IMG/VR virus record: IMGVR_UViG_3300042691_044733
Location: 1-64,000 of that record
Direction: 5' to 3' (one strand)
Source: a virus
Length of the DNA: 64,000 bases
The notes under the pieces are model-generated. The model was given only the letters and a program-made list of their open reading frames with translations. It ran no database searches and was not told where the DNA came from. Positions 16,734-30,651 of this stretch are shown one piece after another. Both the position numbers and the translations under genes were made by a program. The first letter of the stretch is position 1, and every line of letters begins with the position of its first letter.

Positions 16734-16871
16734 ATGATTAAAGAAAAAGATTTAACAATCAGACTTGAGTTTGAACTCAAACAAAAAATTAAAGAAAAGG
16801 CTAAACAACTTGGTTTATCTACTTCTGCTTATGTTAGAATGATAATTAAAAAGGAGGTAGAAAATGGATAA
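16734..16871 (+). CDS. Ribbon-helix-helix (CopG/Arc-like) protein, 45 aa; not in the ORF track
   Basis: MIKEKDLTIRLEFELKQKIKEKAKQLGLSTSAYVRMIIKKEVENG. Confidence 0.7.
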   Translation: MIKEKDLTIRLEFELKQKIKEKAKQLGLSTSAYVRMIIKKEVENG

Positions 16872-17397
16872 TCAAGAGATTTGGAAAGATATACCTGTTT
16901 ATGAAGGGTTGTATCAGGTAAGTAATTTAGGAAGAGTTAAAACTTTAGAAAGAAATGTTTTTTCAAAAGGTAAATTACATTATATTCAAAAAGAAAAGAT
17001 TTTAAAAACATCTTTATACAAAGATGGATATGAAAAAGTTATCTTACAAAAAGATAAACATATAAAAACCTATAAAGTACATACATTAGTAGCAATATGT
17101 TTTTTAAATCATAAACCTGATGGAACTCATAAAATTGTAGTTGACCATATTGATAATAACAGAAGTAACAACAATCTTAATAATTTAAGATTAATTAGTA
17201 ACAGAGAAAATTTATCCAGATTAAAAAGAAAATCTAAATATGTAGGTGTACATTGGTGTAAACTTAATCAAAAATGGAAAGCTGCAATATGGATAGATGG
17301 TAAAAGAAAAAGTCTAGGTTATCATTTAGATGAATATTCTGCTCATTTAAAATATCAAGAAGAACTAAATAAACTAAAAGAAAATGTACATACTTAA
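16864..17397 (+). CDS. NUMOD4-HNH-AP2 homing endonuclease
   Basis: EIWKDIPVYEGLYQVSNLG; VDHIDNNRSNN; SKYVGVHW...KWKAAI...SLGY. Confidence 0.9.
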   Translation: MDNQEIWKDIPVYEGLYQVSNLGRVKTLERNVFSKGKLHYIQKEKILKTSLYKDGYEKVILQKDKHIKTYKVHTLVAICFLNHKPDGTHKIVVDHIDNNRSNNNLNNLRLISNRENLSRLKRKSKYVGVHWCKLNQKWKAAIWIDGKRKSLGYHLDEYSAHLKYQEELNKLKENVHT

Positions 17398-19120: not shown

Positions 19121-19891
19121 ATGAAATTAAAAGATTTACACTCAGAGTTACCAGAAAATATATTGAAAACGGGAGTCTATATTATTTATCTTACTAATAA
19201 ACCAAATTATTTTTATGTAGGTAGTGGAAGTACAATAAAAAGTTCTTCTAACAAAGTAGGTATAGAACAAAGATGGTTTAATCATTTTTCTACTTTAAAA
19301 AGAAATAAACATTACAATAAGTATTTACAAAGAAGCGTAAATAAGTACGGTATTGAAAATTTAAGGTTTAAAATAATAGAATTATGTAGTCCTGAAGAAT
19401 GTATTAACATTGAACAAAAATGGTTGCAATATTACATTACAAATTTTAAAGTTTATAATCTAAATAAAGTCAACCCAAACAGGTTAGGTGTTAAGTTAAA
19501 TCAAAAAACAAAAAATAAAATAGGAAAAGCTAATTCTAAATTACCTGTTTATCAATTTGATTTTAATGGAAATTTAATAAAAGTATGGGATTCTGTTTCA
19601 CAAGCAGAAAAACATTTTAATAATGGAAAAATTATTTATAAGTGTGTACAAAATAAATCTAACACCGCTTATGGGTATATTTGGTCTTATAGTAAAGAAT
19701 TTAGTTTCAAATCATATAACAATAGTAAAAAAATTCGTCAATATGACTTAGAAGGAAATCTTGTTAAAGAATGGTTTAGTATAACTGAAGCAGCTAAATT
19801 TTATAAGGTACAAGGAAGCTCTATATCTATTTGTTGTAGAGAAAACTATAGAACTTGTTGTGGATTCAAATGGAGTTATGCAACTAATTAA
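19121..19891 (+). CDS. GIY-YIG homing endonuclease with two NUMOD1 repeats
   Basis: GVYII...YVGSG...RW..H...EQKW...YN; two (V/I)xQ(F/Y)DxxGNL(I/V)KxWxS repeats. Confidence 0.9.
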   Translation: MKLKDLHSELPENILKTGVYIIYLTNKPNYFYVGSGSTIKSSSNKVGIEQRWFNHFSTLKRNKHYNKYLQRSVNKYGIENLRFKIIELCSPEECINIEQKWLQYYITNFKVYNLNKVNPNRLGVKLNQKTKNKIGKANSKLPVYQFDFNGNLIKVWDSVSQAEKHFNNGKIIYKCVQNKSNTAYGYIWSYSKEFSFKSYNNSKKIRQYDLEGNLVKEWFSITEAAKFYKVQGSSISICCRENYRTCCGFKWSYATN

Positions 19892-19912: not shown

Positions 19913-20917
19913 ATGAATAAACATACAGTTTATGTACCTAAACCTGAAGTTCTTAATGAGGGATATTCTACTGCTGACTTTAATAGTTTAGAAGCATATG
20001 TATTTACTCCAGAAGAATTAAAACAACTTCTTTCAGAATATACTAATAGAATTGTTGAAAATACTAAAATAACTAACGATTATGGTAGTGGTGGAGAACT
20101 GTTTGATTGCATAGATAAAGAATCAATTACATCTCAACTTCCTAAATTTTTAAAAGAAAAAGGAATATGACTAGAAAACAATGTATTAAAATACTTCCTG
20201 TAATAACAGCATTTGCAGAAGGTAAACATATTGAATATTGGGATAGTATGCAAATTGTTGGAACTTTTAAAAGAGGCATGTGGAAAACTGCCGATAACAT
20301 TGGATTTGGGGTTGGATGTTCAAATTACAGAATGATTGAAAACGGAGTGGTACATTATTTTGATGGAAGACCTTCTGTCACAGATAGTTTAAACAAATAT
20401 ATATTTTAAAAGAAAAAGGTTATGAATAACTTATTAAGAATTAAATAAAAATGACAAAACCAGGATTTGTAAAGAAAAGAATTGATGCTTTATTCAAATC
20501 CTCAGATGAGGATAGTAAAGAGCAAATTGTAGAATTATTTGGTAATTACCGAAACAATGTAAAAAGTGTTTGCTATTGTGGAATAGTAAATATTTGTAGT
20601 TGTCCTAATCCAGATCTAATAGGATTTAAAATAGCATTACAAGATGGTTTTATATCAGAAGAAACTCTTTTAAAAATTATAAAATGACTCAATTAATTAA
20701 ACTTTGTTTTAGTGTAATTCTTATAGGATTAGTTTTACCTGTTTTTACTTTAATTTTTAGGATTTATGATTTTATAAATGTATATATAGAAAGAGATCCT
20801 CTATGGGATCACATTGTTTTTTATCTAAACTATGTAATTATGGTTTATTTAGTTTATAAAATTGTATTTTTTAAAGAAACTTCTAAAACTGAAAAAAATG
20901 AACATATTTCTGGATGA
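19913..20917 (+). other. Run of four small hypothetical ORFs (19913-20170, 20167-20409, 20451-20687, 20684-20917)
   Basis: ORF track; ATGA-coupled pairs. Confidence 0.6.
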
Positions 20918-21296
20918 TGTAAGAAATCCAAGTGATTGTGCTAGTTATATGCACAAAAGAATTGGTTTGGCTAATTCAATTTACATAAATGAATCATGGG
21001 TTGTCGTAAGAAATTTTGAAGATTTTCAAAAAGTAGTTGAAGAAAATCTTGGTAAAATTTCAACTATTAGTTTTGATCATGACTTGGCAGATTCACATTA
21101 TGATCCTTCAATGTATGAAAGTTATGAAAAATATGAAGAAGCTATTAAAAATGTAAAAGAAAAAACAGGGTATGATTGTGCTATTTGGTTTAAAGAACTT
21201 TATATTTTAAAAGATTTAGCTTTTCCTGTTATTGTAGTACATTCTATGAATCCAGTTGGAACTCGAAGAATAAATCAAGTATTTGAAGACAATTGA
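20898..21296 (+). CDS. Cyclic-phosphate-processing receiver-domain protein
   Basis: IFLDDVRNP, ISFDHDL, TGYDCAIW and VHSMNPVG motifs. Confidence 0.8.
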   Translation: MNIFLDDVRNPSDCASYMHKRIGLANSIYINESWVVVRNFEDFQKVVEENLGKISTISFDHDLADSHYDPSMYESYEKYEEAIKNVKEKTGYDCAIWFKELYILKDLAFPVIVVHSMNPVGTRRINQVFEDN

Positions 21297-21302
21297 GATA
21301 TA

Positions 21303-21584
21303 TTGGAAGAAATAACTTCTGATGAATGGGAGTTTTATTACTGGAGAAAAGGAACAAGTGGTAATTTTAGATCAAATATGTATGCAACATATTTTAGTGC
21401 AGATGCAATCAATAGAAGTCTTTTGAGAAAAACTTTTCCTTGGTTGCAAGTAGCAGAAGATTTTCAAAATTGTCCTGGGTATAATGAACTTTATAATGCT
21501 GTAATAGAAGCATTGGAAAAAGCAAATGATTCAGAATCAGTAACAAGTGATCTTGGAGATAAAATGCTTGATTTCTTGTTTTAA
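21303..21584 (+). CDS. Hypothetical protein
   Basis: ORF track. Confidence 0.55.
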   Translation: MEEITSDEWEFYYWRKGTSGNFRSNMYATYFSADAINRSLLRKTFPWLQVAEDFQNCPGYNELYNAVIEALEKANDSESVTSDLGDKMLDFLF

Positions 21585-21700
21585 AAATATACTCATAGCT
21601 TCAGTTTTACAGTTACATAACTAGGGTGTTAGATTTACATTTTTAGTGTTGTGAGTAAAGTATAAGTTTGAGTATTATAACCGAAAGTCATGTTATAGCA

Positions 21701-21790
21701 CTCTTTAGCGGGGGTTCGAATCCCCTCTCCCCATCTATTTTATTTTTTATATTGGGGAGTGGACAAGGGGTTAAGTCAAAGAGATTCAGT
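21701..21790 (+). tRNA. Circularly permuted tRNA-like gene (3' half 21701-21734 precedes 5' half 21753-~21790); possible anticodon TCA
   Basis: 3' half: CTCTT-TAGC-GGGGG TTCGAAT CCCCT-CTCCCCA-T. 5' half: TGGGGAG-TG-GAC AAGGGGTTAA GTC-A-AAGAG. Acceptor and anticodon stems pair across the two halves. Confidence 0.75.
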
Positions 21791-21864
21791 TATAAAATAA
21801 TATGAATACGAGTAGGTATGAATAAATTGAGAGTACGGGATATTGTACTCTCAATTTACTTTAC

Positions 21865-21941
21865 AGAGAGATATGCAAACGGCAAAGCAGTAAGTTTCCC
21901 TAGGATTTGTGTTGGTGTTGGTTCGAATCCAGCTCTCTCTA
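21865..21941 (+). tRNA. tRNA-like gene with aberrant anticodon arm (pseudo-tRNA?)
   Basis: AGAGAGA/TCTCTCT acceptor, TGC/GCA D stem and GTTGG-TTCGAAT-CCAGC T arm; anticodon arm is G-U rich with a non-7-nt loop. Confidence 0.6.
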
Positions 21942-21958
21942 CTAAATTTTTTTTAAAA

Positions 21959-22555
21959 ATGAAAATAGTTTCCCGTTTTAAAGATTATTATGATCATTTG
22001 GTTGGTAAATATGGTTATGATGAAAAAGTAATTTACACAAGAAAAACTATTAAACATAATAAAAGTAGTTATGCTGAAAAGAAAGAAATGATTTATAAAA
22101 CTCTTGATAATTTTGTACAACGTGAGTTTTCAATATTTGATTTAAAAACAGATAAATACTGCCTTTTAATGTATTTAGTAATTGGATCAAGAGTATTTAA
22201 AGGATTGATATATCAAAACAATATAAAATGGAATCTACCTAAAGAAGAAATTGAAGAATTACCAAATTACATTAAATATTACTACCAAAATACTGATATA
22301 ATACAAGTACCTGAAGATGTTCCTGTGTTTATGAGTTTTAAATGTCTTGAAGGAGATATTAAACACAGAAGTTTTTCTTTAGAAAATCCTAATTTATCAA
22401 TGTTTAAGGTCGTGAAGATATTATCTGCTGAAGATTGTTATGTTGAAATATATAACAAACTTATTAAAACAAAAGATGTTCCTGATAATATGACAAATAA
22501 AGAAAAGATTTTATCACATGGTTTTGATTTAAAAAAAAGTTTTAGAAAACGATGA
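21959..22555 (+). CDS. Hypothetical phage protein
   Basis: MKIVSRFKDYYD...HGFDLKKSFR; the ORF-track extension overlaps the tRNA-like gene. Confidence 0.75.
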   Translation: MKIVSRFKDYYDHLVGKYGYDEKVIYTRKTIKHNKSSYAEKKEMIYKTLDNFVQREFSIFDLKTDKYCLLMYLVIGSRVFKGLIYQNNIKWNLPKEEIEELPNYIKYYYQNTDIIQVPEDVPVFMSFKCLEGDIKHRSFSLENPNLSMFKVVKILSAEDCYVEIYNKLIKTKDVPDNMTNKEKILSHGFDLKKSFRKR

Positions 22556-22742
22556 AGACATTATTGCTTACTTGGATATTAACCTTTCAAAATCCTCATT
22601 TTGTGTTTTTGAAAGAAGAAGAATTGAGAATAATTTTTGTGAAACCTCAAAATACTAAATTTAAACCAAGATTTATGAATTCTAAAAAGAATTCTACACA
22701 AGTTTTGTTTAAAAAAAGAATAAACCGAAAAATTTTAGAAAG

Positions 22743-23402
22743 ATGAGAGTAAATAGTATAGAAGAAGCAGAGTTAAAATTTGATAAACTTGATTGTATCA
22801 AAGGTTTTTCAAAAAAAGCAAAGTTTGAAGATTATTATAATTATTATAGGAGTAATAATATTTATCGTGATGTTGAAAGACTTTTGAGAAATAATATTAA
22901 CAAATCTTTTCCTCTTACTTATACTTATGCTAAGAAAAAATTAAGATATAAAGACAGATCTCAAAGAAAATATAAACATCTTTCTTTAGATGGAGTATTT
23001 TTTTATTACTTGAGGTCATTTAAACAAAATACTAATATTTCTCAAATTGAATGGAAATACAGATATGGATATTCTTTAACTTATTATTTAGATAATAATA
23101 TTATAAGACTTGTTCCTAAAAAAAGTGAAAAAAAATTTTGGCATTCAAGCAAATACATTTCTTCTGTTAATGAAAAAAATGAATTTGTTTTAGTTCCTGC
23201 TTGGCAATTTGAGAAAAGAAAAGAAAATCGCAAGAAATACATTCAAGCTCTTCAAAATGACATAAAATCACAAGATAAATCTTTAAGAGATTACAAAGTA
23301 TTAACTGATGAAAAGTTTAGAGAATTATTAAAAAATCACAATAAAAACAAAAACAATGTCAATGATAACAGAGGTCGTGTATTCATTTCCTTCAAAATAT
23401 AA
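22743..23402 (+). CDS. Basic hypothetical protein
   Basis: ORF track. Confidence 0.6.
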   Translation: MRVNSIEEAELKFDKLDCIKGFSKKAKFEDYYNYYRSNNIYRDVERLLRNNINKSFPLTYTYAKKKLRYKDRSQRKYKHLSLDGVFFYYLRSFKQNTNISQIEWKYRYGYSLTYYLDNNIIRLVPKKSEKKFWHSSKYISSVNEKNEFVLVPAWQFEKRKENRKKYIQALQNDIKSQDKSLRDYKVLTDEKFRELLKNHNKNKNNVNDNRGRVFISFKI

Positions 23403-25157: not shown

Positions 25158-26246
25158 AATAGCTAATATTTTTTTTTGTTTTAGCTTTCATGTTTCGTAT
25201 ATTTATATATGAGACAAACAACTATAGAAAAATTTGAAAAATTTGATGTAATCAATTTATATGAAAAACAAAATATTTCATTAAATAAACTATCTGATTT
25301 AGTGAAGACTAAACCAGAAACAATATCTAAATATTTAAAATTTAAAGGAATAAAAATCCTTAATAGAGGAAGTTTAGGTATGAATAAATCAGGTAAAAAA
25401 TTTAATGAGTTTGTTTTTGATAAAATCGATTCTGAAGAAAAAGCTTATTGGTTAGGTTTTATTTTTGCAGACGGATATATTTCTTTAAAACATAATGTTT
25501 TTGAAATTTCGTTATCTGCAAAAGATAAAGAACACCTTGAAAAATTTAATTCTTTTATGAACTACAAAGGAAATAATCTAAAATTTAGATTATGCAAAAA
25601 ATTATTTCCAGTGTATAGATGGAATATTAGAAATTTACATTTAGTAAAAACATTAAATTCTTTAGGGTGTAAACCAAATAAAAGTTTAATTTTAGAGTTT
25701 CCTAAAAAATCATTTATTAAAAAATCTTTAATAAGACATTTTATAAGAGGTTATTTTGATGGAGATGGCTGTATTTCAACAACTTTTAGATCTATTAATT
25801 TATTAGGAACTGAAAATATGTTAGAAAACATTAAAAATTATTCTAAAATAAAAACTAAATCTAAACTTTATTGCAAAAATAATAGTAAAATTACTAAAAT
25901 TTTTCAATTAAATAGTTTAAAAGCTTTAGAATTTTTAAATTTTATTTATAAAGATAGTTGTATTTATTTAGAAAGAAAATACAATAAATATTTAGAATTT
26001 TGCCGTTTATATAAGTAATTATATAAATCATTATTGGGGAAAATCGAAGAACTCTGCGATGAGAACATCGAGATTGCTAATAACAGTTAGTGATTGTAAC
26101 GCATAGAGATTGAGCATTATTGTAAGCAAAAATATCTCCAAGAGTCTCCGACACCCTTATGTCTTAGGGTGAAAATATATGCTGAACTTACAAGAATAAG
26201 AATTGTAAGAACTATAGGATAAAAAGCTTGTAGGATAACATAATTG
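25158..26246 (+). mobile_element. Group I intron with LAGLIDADG ORF
   Basis: 5' site GGT|AATAGCT (U-G in P1), terminal G at 26246, P7 GCATA (GTAACGCATAGA) / TATGC (AATATATGCTGAAC). Splicing joins GGGNGG to ESY in frame. Confidence 0.85.
25209..26018 (+). CDS. Intron-encoded LAGLIDADG homing endonuclease
   Basis: AYWLGFIFADGYI and HFIRGYFDGDGCI motifs. Confidence 0.9.
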   Translation: MRQTTIEKFEKFDVINLYEKQNISLNKLSDLVKTKPETISKYLKFKGIKILNRGSLGMNKSGKKFNEFVFDKIDSEEKAYWLGFIFADGYISLKHNVFEISLSAKDKEHLEKFNSFMNYKGNNLKFRLCKKLFPVYRWNIRNLHLVKTLNSLGCKPNKSLILEFPKKSFIKKSLIRHFIRGYFDGDGCISTTFRSINLLGTENMLENIKNYSKIKTKSKLYCKNNSKITKIFQLNSLKALEFLNFIYKDSCIYLERKYNKYLEFCRLYK

Positions 26247-30037: not shown

Positions 30038-30613
30038 TATGTGCAACTTACTTCTACTTGAATTTTTAACTCAAACCTAGTTGCACAATTTATTTATAAT
30101 AACAGTACTATGTTAGACTTACTTCTACAATTCTTGAAAAATTCCGTATTAGTTTAACAATTATCTGTTATTTATTGGGGGATGGTGTAGTGGCAGCACG
30201 CATTATTCATTTACAATTATTTATTATGTTTTTGATACTTCTATGCCTCATTAGCATGAAGCTCAGGTTCGATTCCTGGTCCCCCAACTTTTATGGTTAA
30301 GTTACTTCTATGAAATTTGTAAATTCTATACTTAACCAATTTTTTTATTTATGTGCATCTTACTTCTAAAATTTATGGTAATTATTAGATGCACAATTTA
30401 CTTTTTTATGACTGTCTTACTTCTAATATTCTGCAAAAATAAATTAGTCAGTCAATTACAATTATACTATGATAGCAACAGAAACACACTGGTTGTCATA
30501 GGTTTAAAGATGAAGGAAAGTGTTTGATACCTTCATACCAGAGGAAGTAGCTCAGTTGGTAGAGCAATAATCTAATAATTTTATAATTATTTTTTATATA
30601 GAATTTACTTCTA
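30038..30613 (+). repeat. Array of 7 structured elements: left arm TATR-N6-WTACTTCTA, right arm TW-N6'-YAATT, with anticodon stem-loop or tRNA cargo
   Basis: Left arms at 30038, 30109, 30225, 30292, 30350, 30407 and 30595. Right arms at 30078, 30150, 30206, 30329, 30386, 30445 and 30576. N6 and N6' covary. Confidence 0.9.
30176..30287 (+). tRNA. tRNA-Met(CAT)-like gene with ~41-nt insert in the anticodon stem
   Basis: TGGGGGA/TCCCCCA acceptor, GTGT/GCAC D stem, TCAGG-TTCGATT-CCTGG T arm. Removing 30204-30244 gives CATGC-CTCATTA-GCATG. Confidence 0.8.
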
Positions 30614-30651
30614 AAAATTATATGTCGGGGGTTCGAGTCCCTCCTTCCTCT
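30541..30651 (+). tRNA. tRNA gene (Phe-like body; anticodon AAA or TAA) with ~38-nt insert in the anticodon loop
   Basis: GAGGAAG/CTTCCTC acceptor, TAGCTCAGTTGGTAGAGC, ATAAT/ATTAT anticodon stem, ATGTC variable loop, GGGGG-TTCGAGT-CCCTC T arm. Confidence 0.8.

What the first reader, a model, noticed from the sequence alone, without database searches (positions are those of the whole stretch)
21686..21807. Circularly permuted tRNA-like gene closed by a stem plus ATAGCA bulge
Seen: the 3' half of a tRNA (anticodon 3' strand CTCTT, T arm, acceptor CTCCCCA; 21701-21734) lies upstream of its 5' half (TGGGGAG, D arm, AAGAG; 21753-21783), separated by an 18-nt AT-rich linker. The break is in the anticodon loop. 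The flanks can pair (TCATGTT/AATATGA, or TTATAAC/GTTATAA), leaving ATAGCA unpaired next to the tRNA. This is the same stem-bulge-cargo topology as the 30-kb array but with a different bulge word. Known: permuted tRNAs are documented in some algae and an archaeon and mature via BHB splicing and a circular intermediate; I do not know of phage examples. If the 5' half supplies most of the loop (AT-TCA-G), the anticodon would be UCA (reads UGA), though A32 is atypical.
Basis: partly seen in the sequence, partly recalled or inferred. Interest (0 to 1): 0.85.

Follow-up and report, generated by a model that had tools for sequence, protein, structure and literature searches.

The report
Back-to-front tRNA look-alike in phage
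The back-to-front tRNA is real, but it is most likely a non-coding tRNA look-alike belonging to a widespread, undescribed phage and bacterial RNA family, not a split tRNA gene that is re-joined into a stop-codon suppressor.

Summary
Observation confirmed. At 21701-21783 a tRNA 3' half, an 18-nt AT linker and the matching 5' half stand in that order. Re-ordered in a script they give a 73-nt cloverleaf. Contigs from two other runs bridge the arrangement unchanged.

Interpretation partly supported. A pattern scan found a diverged relative (L086/L087) with the same permuted module directly after a full-length DUF7873 gene. A covariance model built from 40 other DUF7873-linked modules scores the window element 55.3 bits, E 1e-13. 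The model hits 79 of 81 viral DUF7873 loci.

The supposed UCA anticodon lies in a T[TC]AG motif present in 26 of 60 relatives, and L087 has different letters there. I found no bulge-helix-bulge and no phage ligase or splicing endonuclease.

Closest in print is the YrlA-type Y RNA, a circularly permuted tRNA with a capped acceptor stem. However, Rfam's YrlA model does not hit and the phage has no Ro60.

This copy is atypical. It has one head, CTA where relatives keep CCA, and only a possible 33-residue remnant of DUF7873 upstream.

This scan had already found the DUF7873 RNA family on other DNA several times. Function is unknown, and no RNA data were available.

The parts
21303..21584 (+). 93-aa ORF directly upstream. 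Its last 33 residues may be a remnant of the C-terminal helix of DUF7873.
   Evidence: Pfam DUF7873 matches profile positions 210-242 of 244 at E 0.0038, 17.4 bits, below the 27-bit cut-off. The genome search gives E 4.8e-4. hhalign against 41 DUF7873 proteins gives E 7.6e-4 at probability 25%. BLASTP against the L087 protein shows nothing, E 2.5. Its stop lies 114 nt before the module, against 126-133 nt in relatives.
21585..21697 (+). Leader between the ORF stop and the module, probably part of the RNA. It holds a Bacteroidota-type -7 box look-alike TAAGTTTG (21663-21670), ACCGAAAG (21680-21687) and several AG-ending short units.
   Evidence: Sequence, alignment with relatives' leaders. AG spacing is 6 or 12 in only 4 of 11 gaps, so the track is weak here but strong in L117 and L120. 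The 5' end of the RNA is not known.
21688..21696 (+). 5' strand of the closing (flank) helix, TCATGTTAT.
   Evidence: It pairs with 21797-21805 over 9 bp with one G-T. Flank pairing is supported at family level, with 43 of the 61 elements tested (the window's own among the 61) at 5 or fewer of 100 shuffles. It is not supported for the window alone, at 19 of 100.
21698..21788 (+). Circularly permuted tRNA-like module. In order: anticodon-like 3' strand, variable loop, T arm, acceptor 3' strand, T73, CTA, U-rich linker, acceptor 5' strand, D arm, anticodon-like 5' strand.
   Evidence: Model R1, built without this sequence, gives 55.3 bits, E 1.1e-13, full length 1-87. ARAGORN on the re-ordered copy calls a tRNA. 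A strict scan finds it.
21735..21752 (+). Linker that closes the acceptor stem. It begins CTA where relatives have CCA, and ends TATAT before the acceptor 5' strand.
   Evidence: CCA is invariant in 40 of 40 aligned relatives and present in 53 of 56 parsed, with CTA in 2 and CCT in 1. Five of this phage's 8 tRNA genes also have CTA after N73.
21784..21796 (+). 13-nt 3'-side internal loop ATTCAGTTATAAA, holding the family's T[TC]AG motif.
   Evidence: T[TC]AG occurs within 12 nt after the stem in 26 of 60 relatives, against 4.7 expected. By my reading the 3'-side loop is 12-13 nt in L087, L117 and L120 (3 of 3 examined).
21797..21805 (+). 3' strand of the closing helix, ATAATATGA. It is followed by ATAC (21806-21809), which can pair with GTAT (21672-21675).
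21824..21857 (+). 13-bp terminal hairpin followed by TTTAC, the likely 3' end of the RNA.
   Evidence: Inverted match and fold. Relatives end with a hairpin followed by (A/G)TTTAC-like letters at the same relative place (alignment: L087, L117, L120).
20898..21296 (+). Neighbouring cRec gene, a predicted cyclic-phosphate-processing receiver-like phosphoesterase. It is not a regular partner of the RNA.
   Evidence: PF20274 at E 2.7e-18. The 120 best of 541 homologues are almost all about 130 aa (3 exceptions of 173-238 aa) and match only the query's first 54-61%, so the TGA at 21294 is a stop. Only 7 of 80 cRec loci have an R1 hit at E <= 1e-7, and several of those are tandem-tRNA junctions.
21865..21942 (+). 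Low-scoring tRNA-Arg(CCT)-like gene in normal order, right after the hairpin. It is a neighbour, not part of the module.
   Evidence: ARAGORN. Rfam tRNA gives 36.2 bits with an irregular anticodon arm.

Best explanation
The element is the tRNA-like 'head' of a structured non-coding RNA of roughly 270 nt, about 21590-21860, whose ends are not mapped.

It belongs to the family of RNAs that in other phages and bacteria lies directly downstream of the conserved protein DUF7873. In layout it is a YrlA-style tRNA mimic. T arm, acceptor stem and D arm fold as in tRNA. The acceptor stem is closed by a linker. The anticodon-side stem does not end in an anticodon loop but runs on, through an asymmetric internal loop, into a helix made by the RNA's two flanks.

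Shown: the permuted order, its presence in independent assemblies, homology to the DUF7873-linked module, and family-wide covariation of all four stems.

Inferred:
- It acts as an RNA, not as a decoder.
- Because it has a 7-bp acceptor stem, an unstructured U-rich linker and the same N73-CTA trailer as this phage's own tRNA genes, host RNase P and 3'-end enzymes may open the linker and add CCA. That would give a two-piece, CCA-ended tRNA look-alike held together by its stems, as reported for Mycobacterium smegmatis YrlA. I put this sub-step at about 40%.

Its cellular job is unknown. It might bind a tRNA-recognising host factor, or a protein that replaces DUF7873 here.
For: 1. Model R1 was built from 40 DUF7873-linked modules of other viral contigs and did not include the window. 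It scores 21698-21788 at 55.3 bits, E 1.1e-13, over the full model.
2. L086/L087 were found by a pattern scan of metagenome contigs. They carry the same module, 92-94% identical over 34-39 nt in the T arm and acceptor while the rest is unalignable. In L087 it lies 133 nt after a full-length DUF7873 gene, E 3.6e-72.
3. 79 of 81 viral DUF7873 loci have an R1 hit of 44 bits or more downstream on the same strand, including 39 of the 41 loci not used in training.
4. Covariation on the 40-sequence alignment:
   - 92.1% of cells are paired, against 62.1% in shuffles, with 0 of 500 shuffles as high.
   - 20 of 21 pairs change on both sides.
   - Slid controls give 32-48% paired.
   - By stem: acceptor 99.3%, T 99.5%, D 97.5%, anticodon-like 70.5%.
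5. Flanks pair better than 95 of 100 shuffles in 43 of the 61 elements tested (the window's own among the 61).
6. The window shares the family's layout:
   - ORF stop to module is 114 nt.
   - The 3'-side internal loop is 13 nt and holds T[TC]AG.
   - There is a terminal hairpin followed by TTTAC.
7. Published precedent (passages read):
   - M. smegmatis YrlA, with a 7-bp acceptor stem, is cut by RNase P in vitro and receives CCA in vivo (PMC4201824).
8. Five of this phage's 8 tRNA genes have CTA after N73, as the element does.
Against: - No RNA data exist. No RNA run was listed, so transcription, ends and processing are all inferred.
- The phage has no full DUF7873 and no Ro60/TROVE, so this copy has no identified protein partner.
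- CCA, which is invariant in 40 of 40 aligned relatives, is CTA here.
- The D stem has one mismatch.
- The score of 55 bits is in the lower part of the family range of 44-90 bits. The copy could be decaying.
- R1 can score up to 51.5 bits on junctions of two tandem tRNAs with like acceptor stems (L081/L082). The score alone is therefore not proof. The absence of any tRNA call over 21600-21860 is also needed.
- The window's own flank helix is not better than chance.
- In roughly 15-20 of the 70 loci with a module listed, by my rough reading, the linker pairs with the CCA. This fits a closed stem better than an opened one and weakens the two-piece sub-step as a family rule.
Confidence: 0.8

Rival explanations
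1. It is a genuine circularly permuted tRNA gene. The flanks are cut, the ends are ligated (circular intermediate), the linker is removed by RNase P and a 3' nuclease, and the result is a working tRNA, possibly a UCA opal suppressor.
For: - All tRNA parts and tertiary letters are present and re-order into a cloverleaf.
- The N73-CTA trailer is like the phage's own tRNAs, and relatives encode CCA.
- The gene two positions upstream is a predicted 2',3'-cyclic-phosphate esterase (PMC7824862, passages read).
- An in-frame TGA separates the two upstream ORFs.
- Two tRNA genes at 30.2 and 30.5 kb carry inserts of about 40 nt, so some RNA cut-and-join activity in this system cannot be excluded.
Against: - The would-be anticodon loop is not conserved. 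The window has ATTCAGT and L087 has TTATTAG, beside an identical T arm and acceptor. The TCAG is a family motif, present in 26 of 60 relatives.
- There is no BHB. The internal loop is 4 nt against 13 nt.
- The whole phage genome gave no match to RtcB, Rnl1, Rnl2 or tRNA-intron endonuclease.
- The TGA is a true stop. The listed cRec homologues (120 of 541) are almost all about 130 aa and match only the first 54-61% of the read-through query. 45 of 137 long ORFs end in TGA.
- ARAGORN accepts 27 of 27 arbitrary junctions, so its 'anticodon' call carries no weight.
Confidence: 0.04
2. It is a decaying relic. The phage lost DUF7873, leaving only a short C-terminal trace, and the RNA head persists without function.
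For: - No full DUF7873 is present in the genome.
- CCA has changed to CTA.
- There is a D-stem mismatch.
- There is only one head.
- The AG-unit track is weak.
- The model score is 55 bits, against 74-75 for L086/L087.
Against: - 20 of 21 stem pairs are intact in a 29% GC genome.
- The T arm and acceptor are 92-94% identical to L086/L087 although the surrounding DNA is unalignable.
- CTA matches the trailers of this phage's own tRNAs rather than looking like random decay.
- Other complete phage genomes carry capped permuted modules with neither DUF7873 nor Ro60: L059 and L050 in G001 and G004. A partner-less head may therefore be a normal state.
Confidence: 0.14
3. It is an assembly rearrangement, or the junction of two tandem tRNA genes.
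For: Model R1 also scores tandem-tRNA junctions, up to 51.5 bits.
Against: - Contigs of two other runs from different studies bridge 21254-21789 and 21454-21833 with no difference.
- No tRNA is called on either side within 21600-21860.
- The same order is seen in L086/L087 and in 79 of 81 DUF7873 loci.
Confidence: 0.01

Closest known systems
YrlA-type bacterial and phage Y RNAs (Rfam RF02553; Chen et al. 2014, PMC4201824; Wang et al. 2018, bioRxiv 10.1101/312249), especially Mycobacterium smegmatis YrlA
   Same: - The order of parts is the same: flank stem, variable loop, T arm, loop-capped acceptor stem, D arm, flank stem. This is seen in the Rfam consensus line printed.
- It has no anticodon loop.
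- The 7-bp acceptor stem matches the M. smegmatis RNA, which RNase P cuts and which gains CCA in vivo (passages read).
   Different: - The Rfam YrlA model gives no hit on the element at E <= 10.
- There is no Ro60/TROVE gene in the phage.
- The 5' motif GNCGAAN0-1G is matched only as ACCGAAAG, and CGAA(N)G is not enriched in the window: 26 found against 32.7 expected.
- The relatives' partner gene is DUF7873, not Ro60.
DUF7873-associated tRNA-mimic RNA
   Same: - The covariance model hits at 55.3 bits.
- It lies in the same place after the upstream ORF stop.
- It has the same internal-loop size with T[TC]AG.
- It ends with the same kind of terminal hairpin.
   Different: - The full DUF7873 gene is missing here, with at most a 33-residue trace.
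- It has CTA instead of the near-invariant CCA.
- It has one head, not two. L087 and L117 also look one-headed.
- The six-letter track is weak.
Circularly permuted tRNA genes of Cyanidioschyzon merolae, some green algae and Thermofilum pendens (recalled; cited in 10.1101/312249, discussion passage read)
   Same: The 3' half lies upstream of the 5' half, the acceptor stem is first closed by a linker, and the flanks pair on the anticodon side.
   Different: Those have a BHB motif at the junction, a splicing endonuclease and ligase, and a conserved functional anticodon loop after joining. None of the three was found here.
Two-piece (permuted) tmRNA genes (Rfam RF04321, RF01850)
   Same: The gene order is permuted, with a T arm and acceptor 3' strand before the acceptor 5' strand. 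The mature RNA is held together by base pairing.
   Different: - ARAGORN finds no tmRNA.
- RF04321 gives only 14.5 bits against a gathering score of 47.
- There is no tag reading frame or pseudoknots.
- A D arm is present.

Membership tests
DUF7873-associated tRNA-mimic RNA (unpublished; defined here by model R1) | Full-length match to a covariance model of the permuted module built from other members | tested here: met
   55.3 bits, E 1.1e-13, model positions 1-87 of 87. Members score 44-90 bits. Caveat: tandem-tRNA junctions reach 51.5 bits, but no tRNA is called here.
DUF7873-associated tRNA-mimic RNA | Lies about 115-135 nt (sometimes more) downstream of a DUF7873 gene on the same strand | tested here: inconclusive
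   There is no full gene in the genome. The upstream 93-aa ORF ends 114 nt before the module, and its last 33 residues align weakly to the DUF7873 C-terminus (E 0.0038; hhalign E 7.6e-4, probability 25%; BLASTP negative).
DUF7873-associated tRNA-mimic RNA | N73 followed by CCA at the start of the linker | tested here: not met
   The window has T-CTA. CCA is present in 40 of 40 aligned and 53 of 56 parsed relatives, with CTA in 2 of 56.
DUF7873-associated tRNA-mimic RNA | Flanks pair into a long interrupted stem, with a terminal hairpin at the 3' end | tested here: inconclusive
   A 9-bp helix and a 13-bp terminal hairpin are present. The window's flank duplex is matched by 19 of 100 shuffles. 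For the family, 43 of the 61 elements tested (the window's own included) are at 5 or fewer of 100.
YrlA (Rfam RF02553) | Score at or above the Rfam gathering threshold of 69 bits | tested here: not met
   There is no hit on 21586-21970 at E <= 10. Genome-wide, only tandem-tRNA sites at 30.5-30.7 kb hit, at 23 and 14.3 bits.
YrlA (Rfam RF02553) | T arm, loop-capped acceptor stem and D arm in permuted order, closed by the RNA's ends | tested here: met
   consensus layout seen
YrlA (Rfam RF02553) | Encoded within about 4 kb of a Ro60/TROVE gene on the same strand (PMC4201824, passage read) | tested here: not met
   PF05731 gives 0 matches in the 126,979-bp record, while the control rang in D. radiodurans and B. 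thetaiotaomicron.
YrlA (Rfam RF02553) | GNCGAAN0-1G near the 5' end | tested here: inconclusive
   ACCGAAAG at 21680-21687 matches 7 of 8. CGAA(N)G is not enriched in the window. The RNA 5' end is unknown.
Circularly permuted tRNA genes (algal/archaeal type) | 3' half upstream of the 5' half of one tRNA | tested here: met
Circularly permuted tRNA genes (algal/archaeal type) | Bulge-helix-bulge motif at the junction formed by leader and trailer | tested here: not met
   Read. The anticodon-like stem is followed by a 4-nt (5' side) / 13-nt (3' side) internal loop and a 9-bp helix. There is no 3-nt / 4-bp / 3-nt arrangement.
Circularly permuted tRNA genes (algal/archaeal type) | Splicing endonuclease and RNA ligase available | tested here: not met
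   For the phage genome, PF01974, PF01139, PF09414 and PF09511 all gave 0 matches. Host enzymes could not be tested, because the host is unknown.
Circularly permuted tRNA genes (algal/archaeal type) | A conserved 7-nt anticodon loop results from joining | tested here: not met
   The loop letters differ between the window and L087 while the T arm and acceptor are identical. T[TC]AG is a family motif.
Permuted tmRNA | Rfam or ARAGORN tmRNA call | tested here: not met
   ARAGORN finds none. RF04321 gives 14.5 bits against 47, and RF01851 gives 15.4 against 70.

The most novel reading that the evidence does not exclude
The linker is opened in the cell by RNase P and 3' trimming, and CCA is added. 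This would give a two-piece, CCA-ended and possibly aminoacylated tRNA 'top half' that stays clamped to a long stem instead of an anticodon. The phage would use it without any dedicated partner protein, for example to occupy or mislead a host factor that inspects tRNA acceptor ends: a tRNA-targeting defence nuclease, a synthetase, EF-Tu or the CCA enzyme. The near-invariant CCA in relatives would then be the working 3' end of a new class of chargeable non-decoding RNAs.
Probability: 0.25. Interest if true: 0.8.

Novelty: new variant of a known kind. Interest (0 to 1): 0.5.

Why it matters
A permuted, loop-capped tRNA look-alike is already known in print as the YrlA class of Y RNAs, so the layout itself is not new.

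What is not in print, as far as my searches reach, is the Ro60-independent family tied to DUF7873. That family is common: 154 tblastn-confirmed stretches in IMG/VR alone. Its stems covary strongly and its CCA is almost invariant.

This window adds an informative edge case. It is a phage of about 127 kb, called crAss-like in earlier notes of this scan, which I did not test. The phage keeps the RNA head under apparent constraint although the partner gene is gone. The CCA has changed to the same CTA trailer as the phage's own tRNA genes. That pattern points to the acceptor end, not an anticodon, as the functional part, and suggests that the head can work without DUF7873.

It also warns annotators that tRNA finders miss these elements. 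A 'split tRNA' or 'suppressor' reading of them is tempting but unsupported.

Tried and rejected
1. Close relatives through neighbouring proteins. The search for related loci in viral contigs gave none with the cRec protein, the 194-aa downstream ORF or the 687-aa protein. An exact pattern of the element also found none in viral contigs. blastn of 20800-23000 against the GenBank phage collection gave no match.

2. Read-through of the in-frame TGA at 21294, as a possible client of a UCA suppressor. Rejected: the listed homologues are almost all about 130 aa and match only the first 54-61% of the query, and Pfam hits are unchanged by read-through.

3. cRec as a regular partner of the RNA. Rejected:
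   - Only 7 of 80 cRec loci have an R1 hit at E <= 1e-7.
   - By my reading, those in L081/L082, L062 and one L045 site are tandem-tRNA junctions; the two L045 hits I did not inspect.
   - Rfam found no YrlA in the 17 of 80 cRec loci that I gave it.

4. My first loose permuted-module scan gave hits in 65 of 80 loci, mostly noise, and was discarded. Stricter versions were used instead.

5. The 93-aa ORF. A full HMMER search found only 15 weak relatives, best E 7.8e-9, mostly 70-130-aa proteins. This sheds no light on function.

6. DUF7873 structure.
   - The AlphaFold model is good, with pLDDT 89.5.
   - Foldseek against the PDB gave nothing at E <= 0.001. The best rows were Cascade Cas7 chains at E 0.013, TM 0.12.
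   - VIA-align wide gave only generic helical matches, best Z 8.8.
   - A profile search of PDB sequences gave 0 matches.
   - No fold assignment can be made. The Cas7 rows are too weak to use.

7. RNA evidence. No RNA holder was listed for 21000-22500. All four runs laid were DNA contigs, so nothing can be said on expression, ends or joints.

8. The six-letter (AG-ending) track noted by earlier agents is clear in L117 and L120 but weak in the window and L087. I make no claim on it for this window.

9. RNAfold minimum-energy folds of the region do not reproduce the tRNA-like core and were not used as evidence.

10. Earlier-findings look-ups by place (relatives) and by sequence returned nothing.

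Either could contain this family under another name.

Full report
**The observation**

The window is the first 64 kb of a 126,979-bp IMG/VR virus record with 29% G+C. Earlier notes of this scan call it crAss-like, which I did not test.

At 21701-21783 the sequence reads, in this order:
- a 5-nt strand CTCTT
- a 4-nt variable loop
- a canonical T arm (GGGGG, TTCGAAT, CCCCT)
- a 7-nt acceptor 3' strand CTCCCCA
- T, then an 18-nt AT linker that starts CTA
- the complementary acceptor 5' strand TGGGGAG
- TG, a D arm with GG in its loop, and A
- AAGAG, which pairs with CTCTT

tRNA finders see nothing in the native order. When a script re-orders the two halves, ARAGORN draws a 73-nt cloverleaf. It does so for 27 of 27 trial junctions, so the anticodon it names has no weight.

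A strict scan of both strands of the window finds one complete module of this kind.

Logan contigs of two other runs from other studies bridge the whole arrangement with no differences. They are X4 at 21254-21789 and X5 at 21454-21833.

**Relatives**

A pattern scan of metagenome contigs looked for T loop, acceptor 3' strand, a gap of 8-38 nt and the acceptor 5' strand. It found two near-identical 3.3-kb contigs, L086 and L087.
- Their DNA is unalignable to the window except for 34-39 nt of T arm and acceptor, at 92-94% identity.
- They have the same permuted order, a 22-nt linker and an encoded CCA after T73.
- The gene that ends 133 nt upstream in L087 is a full-length DUF7873 protein, PF25283 at E 3.6e-72.
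That lead is what made me check the upstream gene.

**The family**

With an alignment of 41 DUF7873 proteins, the search for related loci confirmed 154 of 214 candidate stretches in IMG/VR and kept 80 loci. A crude scan found a permuted module downstream of the gene in 70 of 82 loci.

I aligned 40 modules, leaving out the window and L086/L087. In that alignment N73-CCA is invariant in 40 of 40.

For the four-stem structure I wrote, the counts on this alignment were:
- 92.1% of cells are paired, against 62.1% in shuffles, with 0 of 500 shuffles as high.
- 20 of 21 pairs change on both sides.
- Slid controls give 32-48% paired.
- By stem: acceptor 99.3%, T 99.5%, D 97.5%, anticodon-like 70.5%. 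The last is lower partly because the register differs among sequences.

The covariance model R1 built from this alignment gave the following scores:

| Target | Result |
|---|---|
| Window 21698-21788 | 55.3 bits, E 1.1e-13, full length |
| L086 / L087 | 75.2 / 73.8 bits |
| Viral DUF7873 loci | 79 of 81 at 44 bits or more, downstream on the gene's strand |
| Non-training loci among those | 39 of 41 |

One caveat applies. The same model gives up to 51.5 bits on junctions of two tandem tRNAs with like acceptor stems (L081/L082). The score must therefore be read together with the absence of any tRNA call around the window element.

Beyond the anticodon-like stem, the flanks of family members pair. 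In 43 of the 61 elements tested (the window's own among the 61), the duplex energy is reached by at most 5 of 100 shuffles. The window's own 9-bp helix (21688-21696 with 21797-21805) is not significant by itself, at 19 of 100.

Between stem and helix, the three relatives I read by eye (L087, L117, L120) have 7-8 nt on the 5' side and 12-13 nt on the 3' side. The window has 4 and 13. This is not a bulge-helix-bulge.

That motif occurs within 12 nt of the stem in 26 of 60 relatives, against 4.7 expected. L087 has TTATTAG there. A decoder would conserve its anticodon loop above all. Here the T arm and acceptor are what stays identical.

The phage genome gave no match to RtcB, Rnl1, Rnl2 or the tRNA-intron endonuclease.

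The in-frame TGA at 21294 is an ordinary stop, because the listed cRec homologues are almost all about 130 aa and match only the first 54-61% of the read-through query.

I therefore put the 'spliced UCA suppressor' reading at about 4%.

**What is unusual in this copy**
- There is no full DUF7873 in the genome (positive control 3 of 3).
- The 93-aa ORF that ends 114 nt before the module has a weak match of its last 33 residues to the very C-terminus of DUF7873. The figures are Pfam E 0.0038, below the cut-off, and hhalign E 7.6e-4 at probability 25%. BLASTP to the L087 protein is negative. The position fits a remnant, but the similarity alone does not prove it.
- CCA is CTA. Five of this phage's 8 tRNA genes also have CTA after N73, 2 have CCA and 1 has CTT. 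The element's acceptor end thus looks like the phage's own tRNA 3' ends. That favours tRNA-like 3' processing with CCA addition by the host, though chance or recent descent from a tRNA cannot be excluded.
- In an alignment of whole intergenic regions, the window, L087 and L117 lack the second tRNA-like part that L120 and L118 show. All end in a hairpin followed by TTTAC-like letters.

**How it most likely works**

The published analogue is YrlA.
- The Rfam consensus line shows the same order of parts.
- Chen et al. report that M. smegmatis YrlA, with a 7-bp acceptor stem, is cut by RNase P RNA in vitro and is cleaved and given CCA in vivo (PMC4201824, passages read).
- Chen et al. also found YrlA-like RNAs in 22 phages, beside Ro60 genes.

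The window element is not a member of that Rfam family. There is no hit at E <= 10 and no TROVE gene. It does work like one in layout.

I infer a non-decoding tRNA mimic. The step 'linker opened, CCA added, two pieces held by the stems' is plausible here, given the 7-bp stem, the U before +1, the unstructured U-rich linker and the CTA trailer. It is untested.

In roughly 15-20 of the 70 loci with a module listed the linker pairs with the CCA, by my rough reading. This argues against that step as a universal rule.

The neighbouring cRec gene is a predicted cyclic-phosphate esterase (PMC7824862, passages read). It is not a regular companion of the module.

**Wider picture**

Capped permuted modules also occur in phage tRNA arrays that have neither Ro60 nor DUF7873:
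- L059 and L065 have UUCG-capped acceptor stems and score 50-51 bits.
- L050 has a module butted between two tRNAs and scores 42 bits.
- Their records G001-G004 gave 0 of 4 for TROVE and 0 of 4 for DUF7873, and two of the four records are complete.

A partner-less head may therefore be a normal state rather than decay. I still keep 'relic' at about 14%.

**Novelty and limits**

The string 'DUF7873' occurs in 0 papers of the library. Searches for permuted tRNA with phage, and for tRNA mimic, Ro60 and crAss-like terms, gave nothing on this family (listings and the passages cited).

Supplements are closed. The supplementary lists of PMC4201824 and PMC10690425 might include it.

This scan has found the family before on other DNA.

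There is no RNA evidence of any kind for this window. The RNA's ends, its processing and its function are inferences.

Noticed in passing
window 30038-30457 and 30176-30651: There are five hairpins whose stems differ but which all carry TTACTTCTA just after the 5' strand. Two tRNA genes (30176-30287, 30541-30651) hold inserts of about 40 nt containing the same word. Seven of the 12 exact TACTTCTA copies in the window lie in 30049-30613. Model R1 does not hit the hairpins.
   Followed up: partly
window 8722-30732 (tRNA genes): Five of the 8 tRNA genes have CTA directly after the discriminator, 2 have CCA and 1 has CTT. This suggests a shared 3'-processing signal, or CCA genes that drifted to CTA in this AT-rich phage.
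   Followed up: partly
window 20862-21584: The cRec ORF and the following 93-aa ORF are in the same frame, separated by a single TGA at 21294-21296. Homologues show that the cRec protein ends there. TGA ends 45 of 137 long ORFs genome-wide.
   Followed up: yes
L003:5893-6608: In the phage with the closest cRec protein (57% identity), three tRNA-like genes share the same acceptor stem and T arm but differ in the middle. Two of them have inserts and are 106-118 nt long.
   Followed up: no
L059:5606-5682, L065:482-559 and 647-719, L050:5903-5982, L067:4949-5028: These are permuted tRNA-like modules in phage tRNA arrays. Two have UUCG-capped acceptor stems and one is butted between two tRNAs. The records lack both TROVE and DUF7873.
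   Followed up: partly
L117:2245-2372, L120:2239-2368: The leaders of DUF7873-linked RNAs carry striking runs of six-letter units ending in AG(C), with AG spaced by 6 many times in a row. Earlier agents noted the same. The meaning is unknown.
   Followed up: partly
L089-L168 linkers (listing): In a minority of family members the linker forms a hairpin in which the CCA pairs with a TGG just before the acceptor 5' strand. This extends the acceptor stem instead of leaving CCA free.
   Followed up: no
window 25209-26018, 19121-19891, 16864-17397: Three homing-endonuclease-like genes (LAGLIDADG; NUMOD1; NUMOD4 with HNH) lie within 10 kb of the tRNA region.
   Followed up: no
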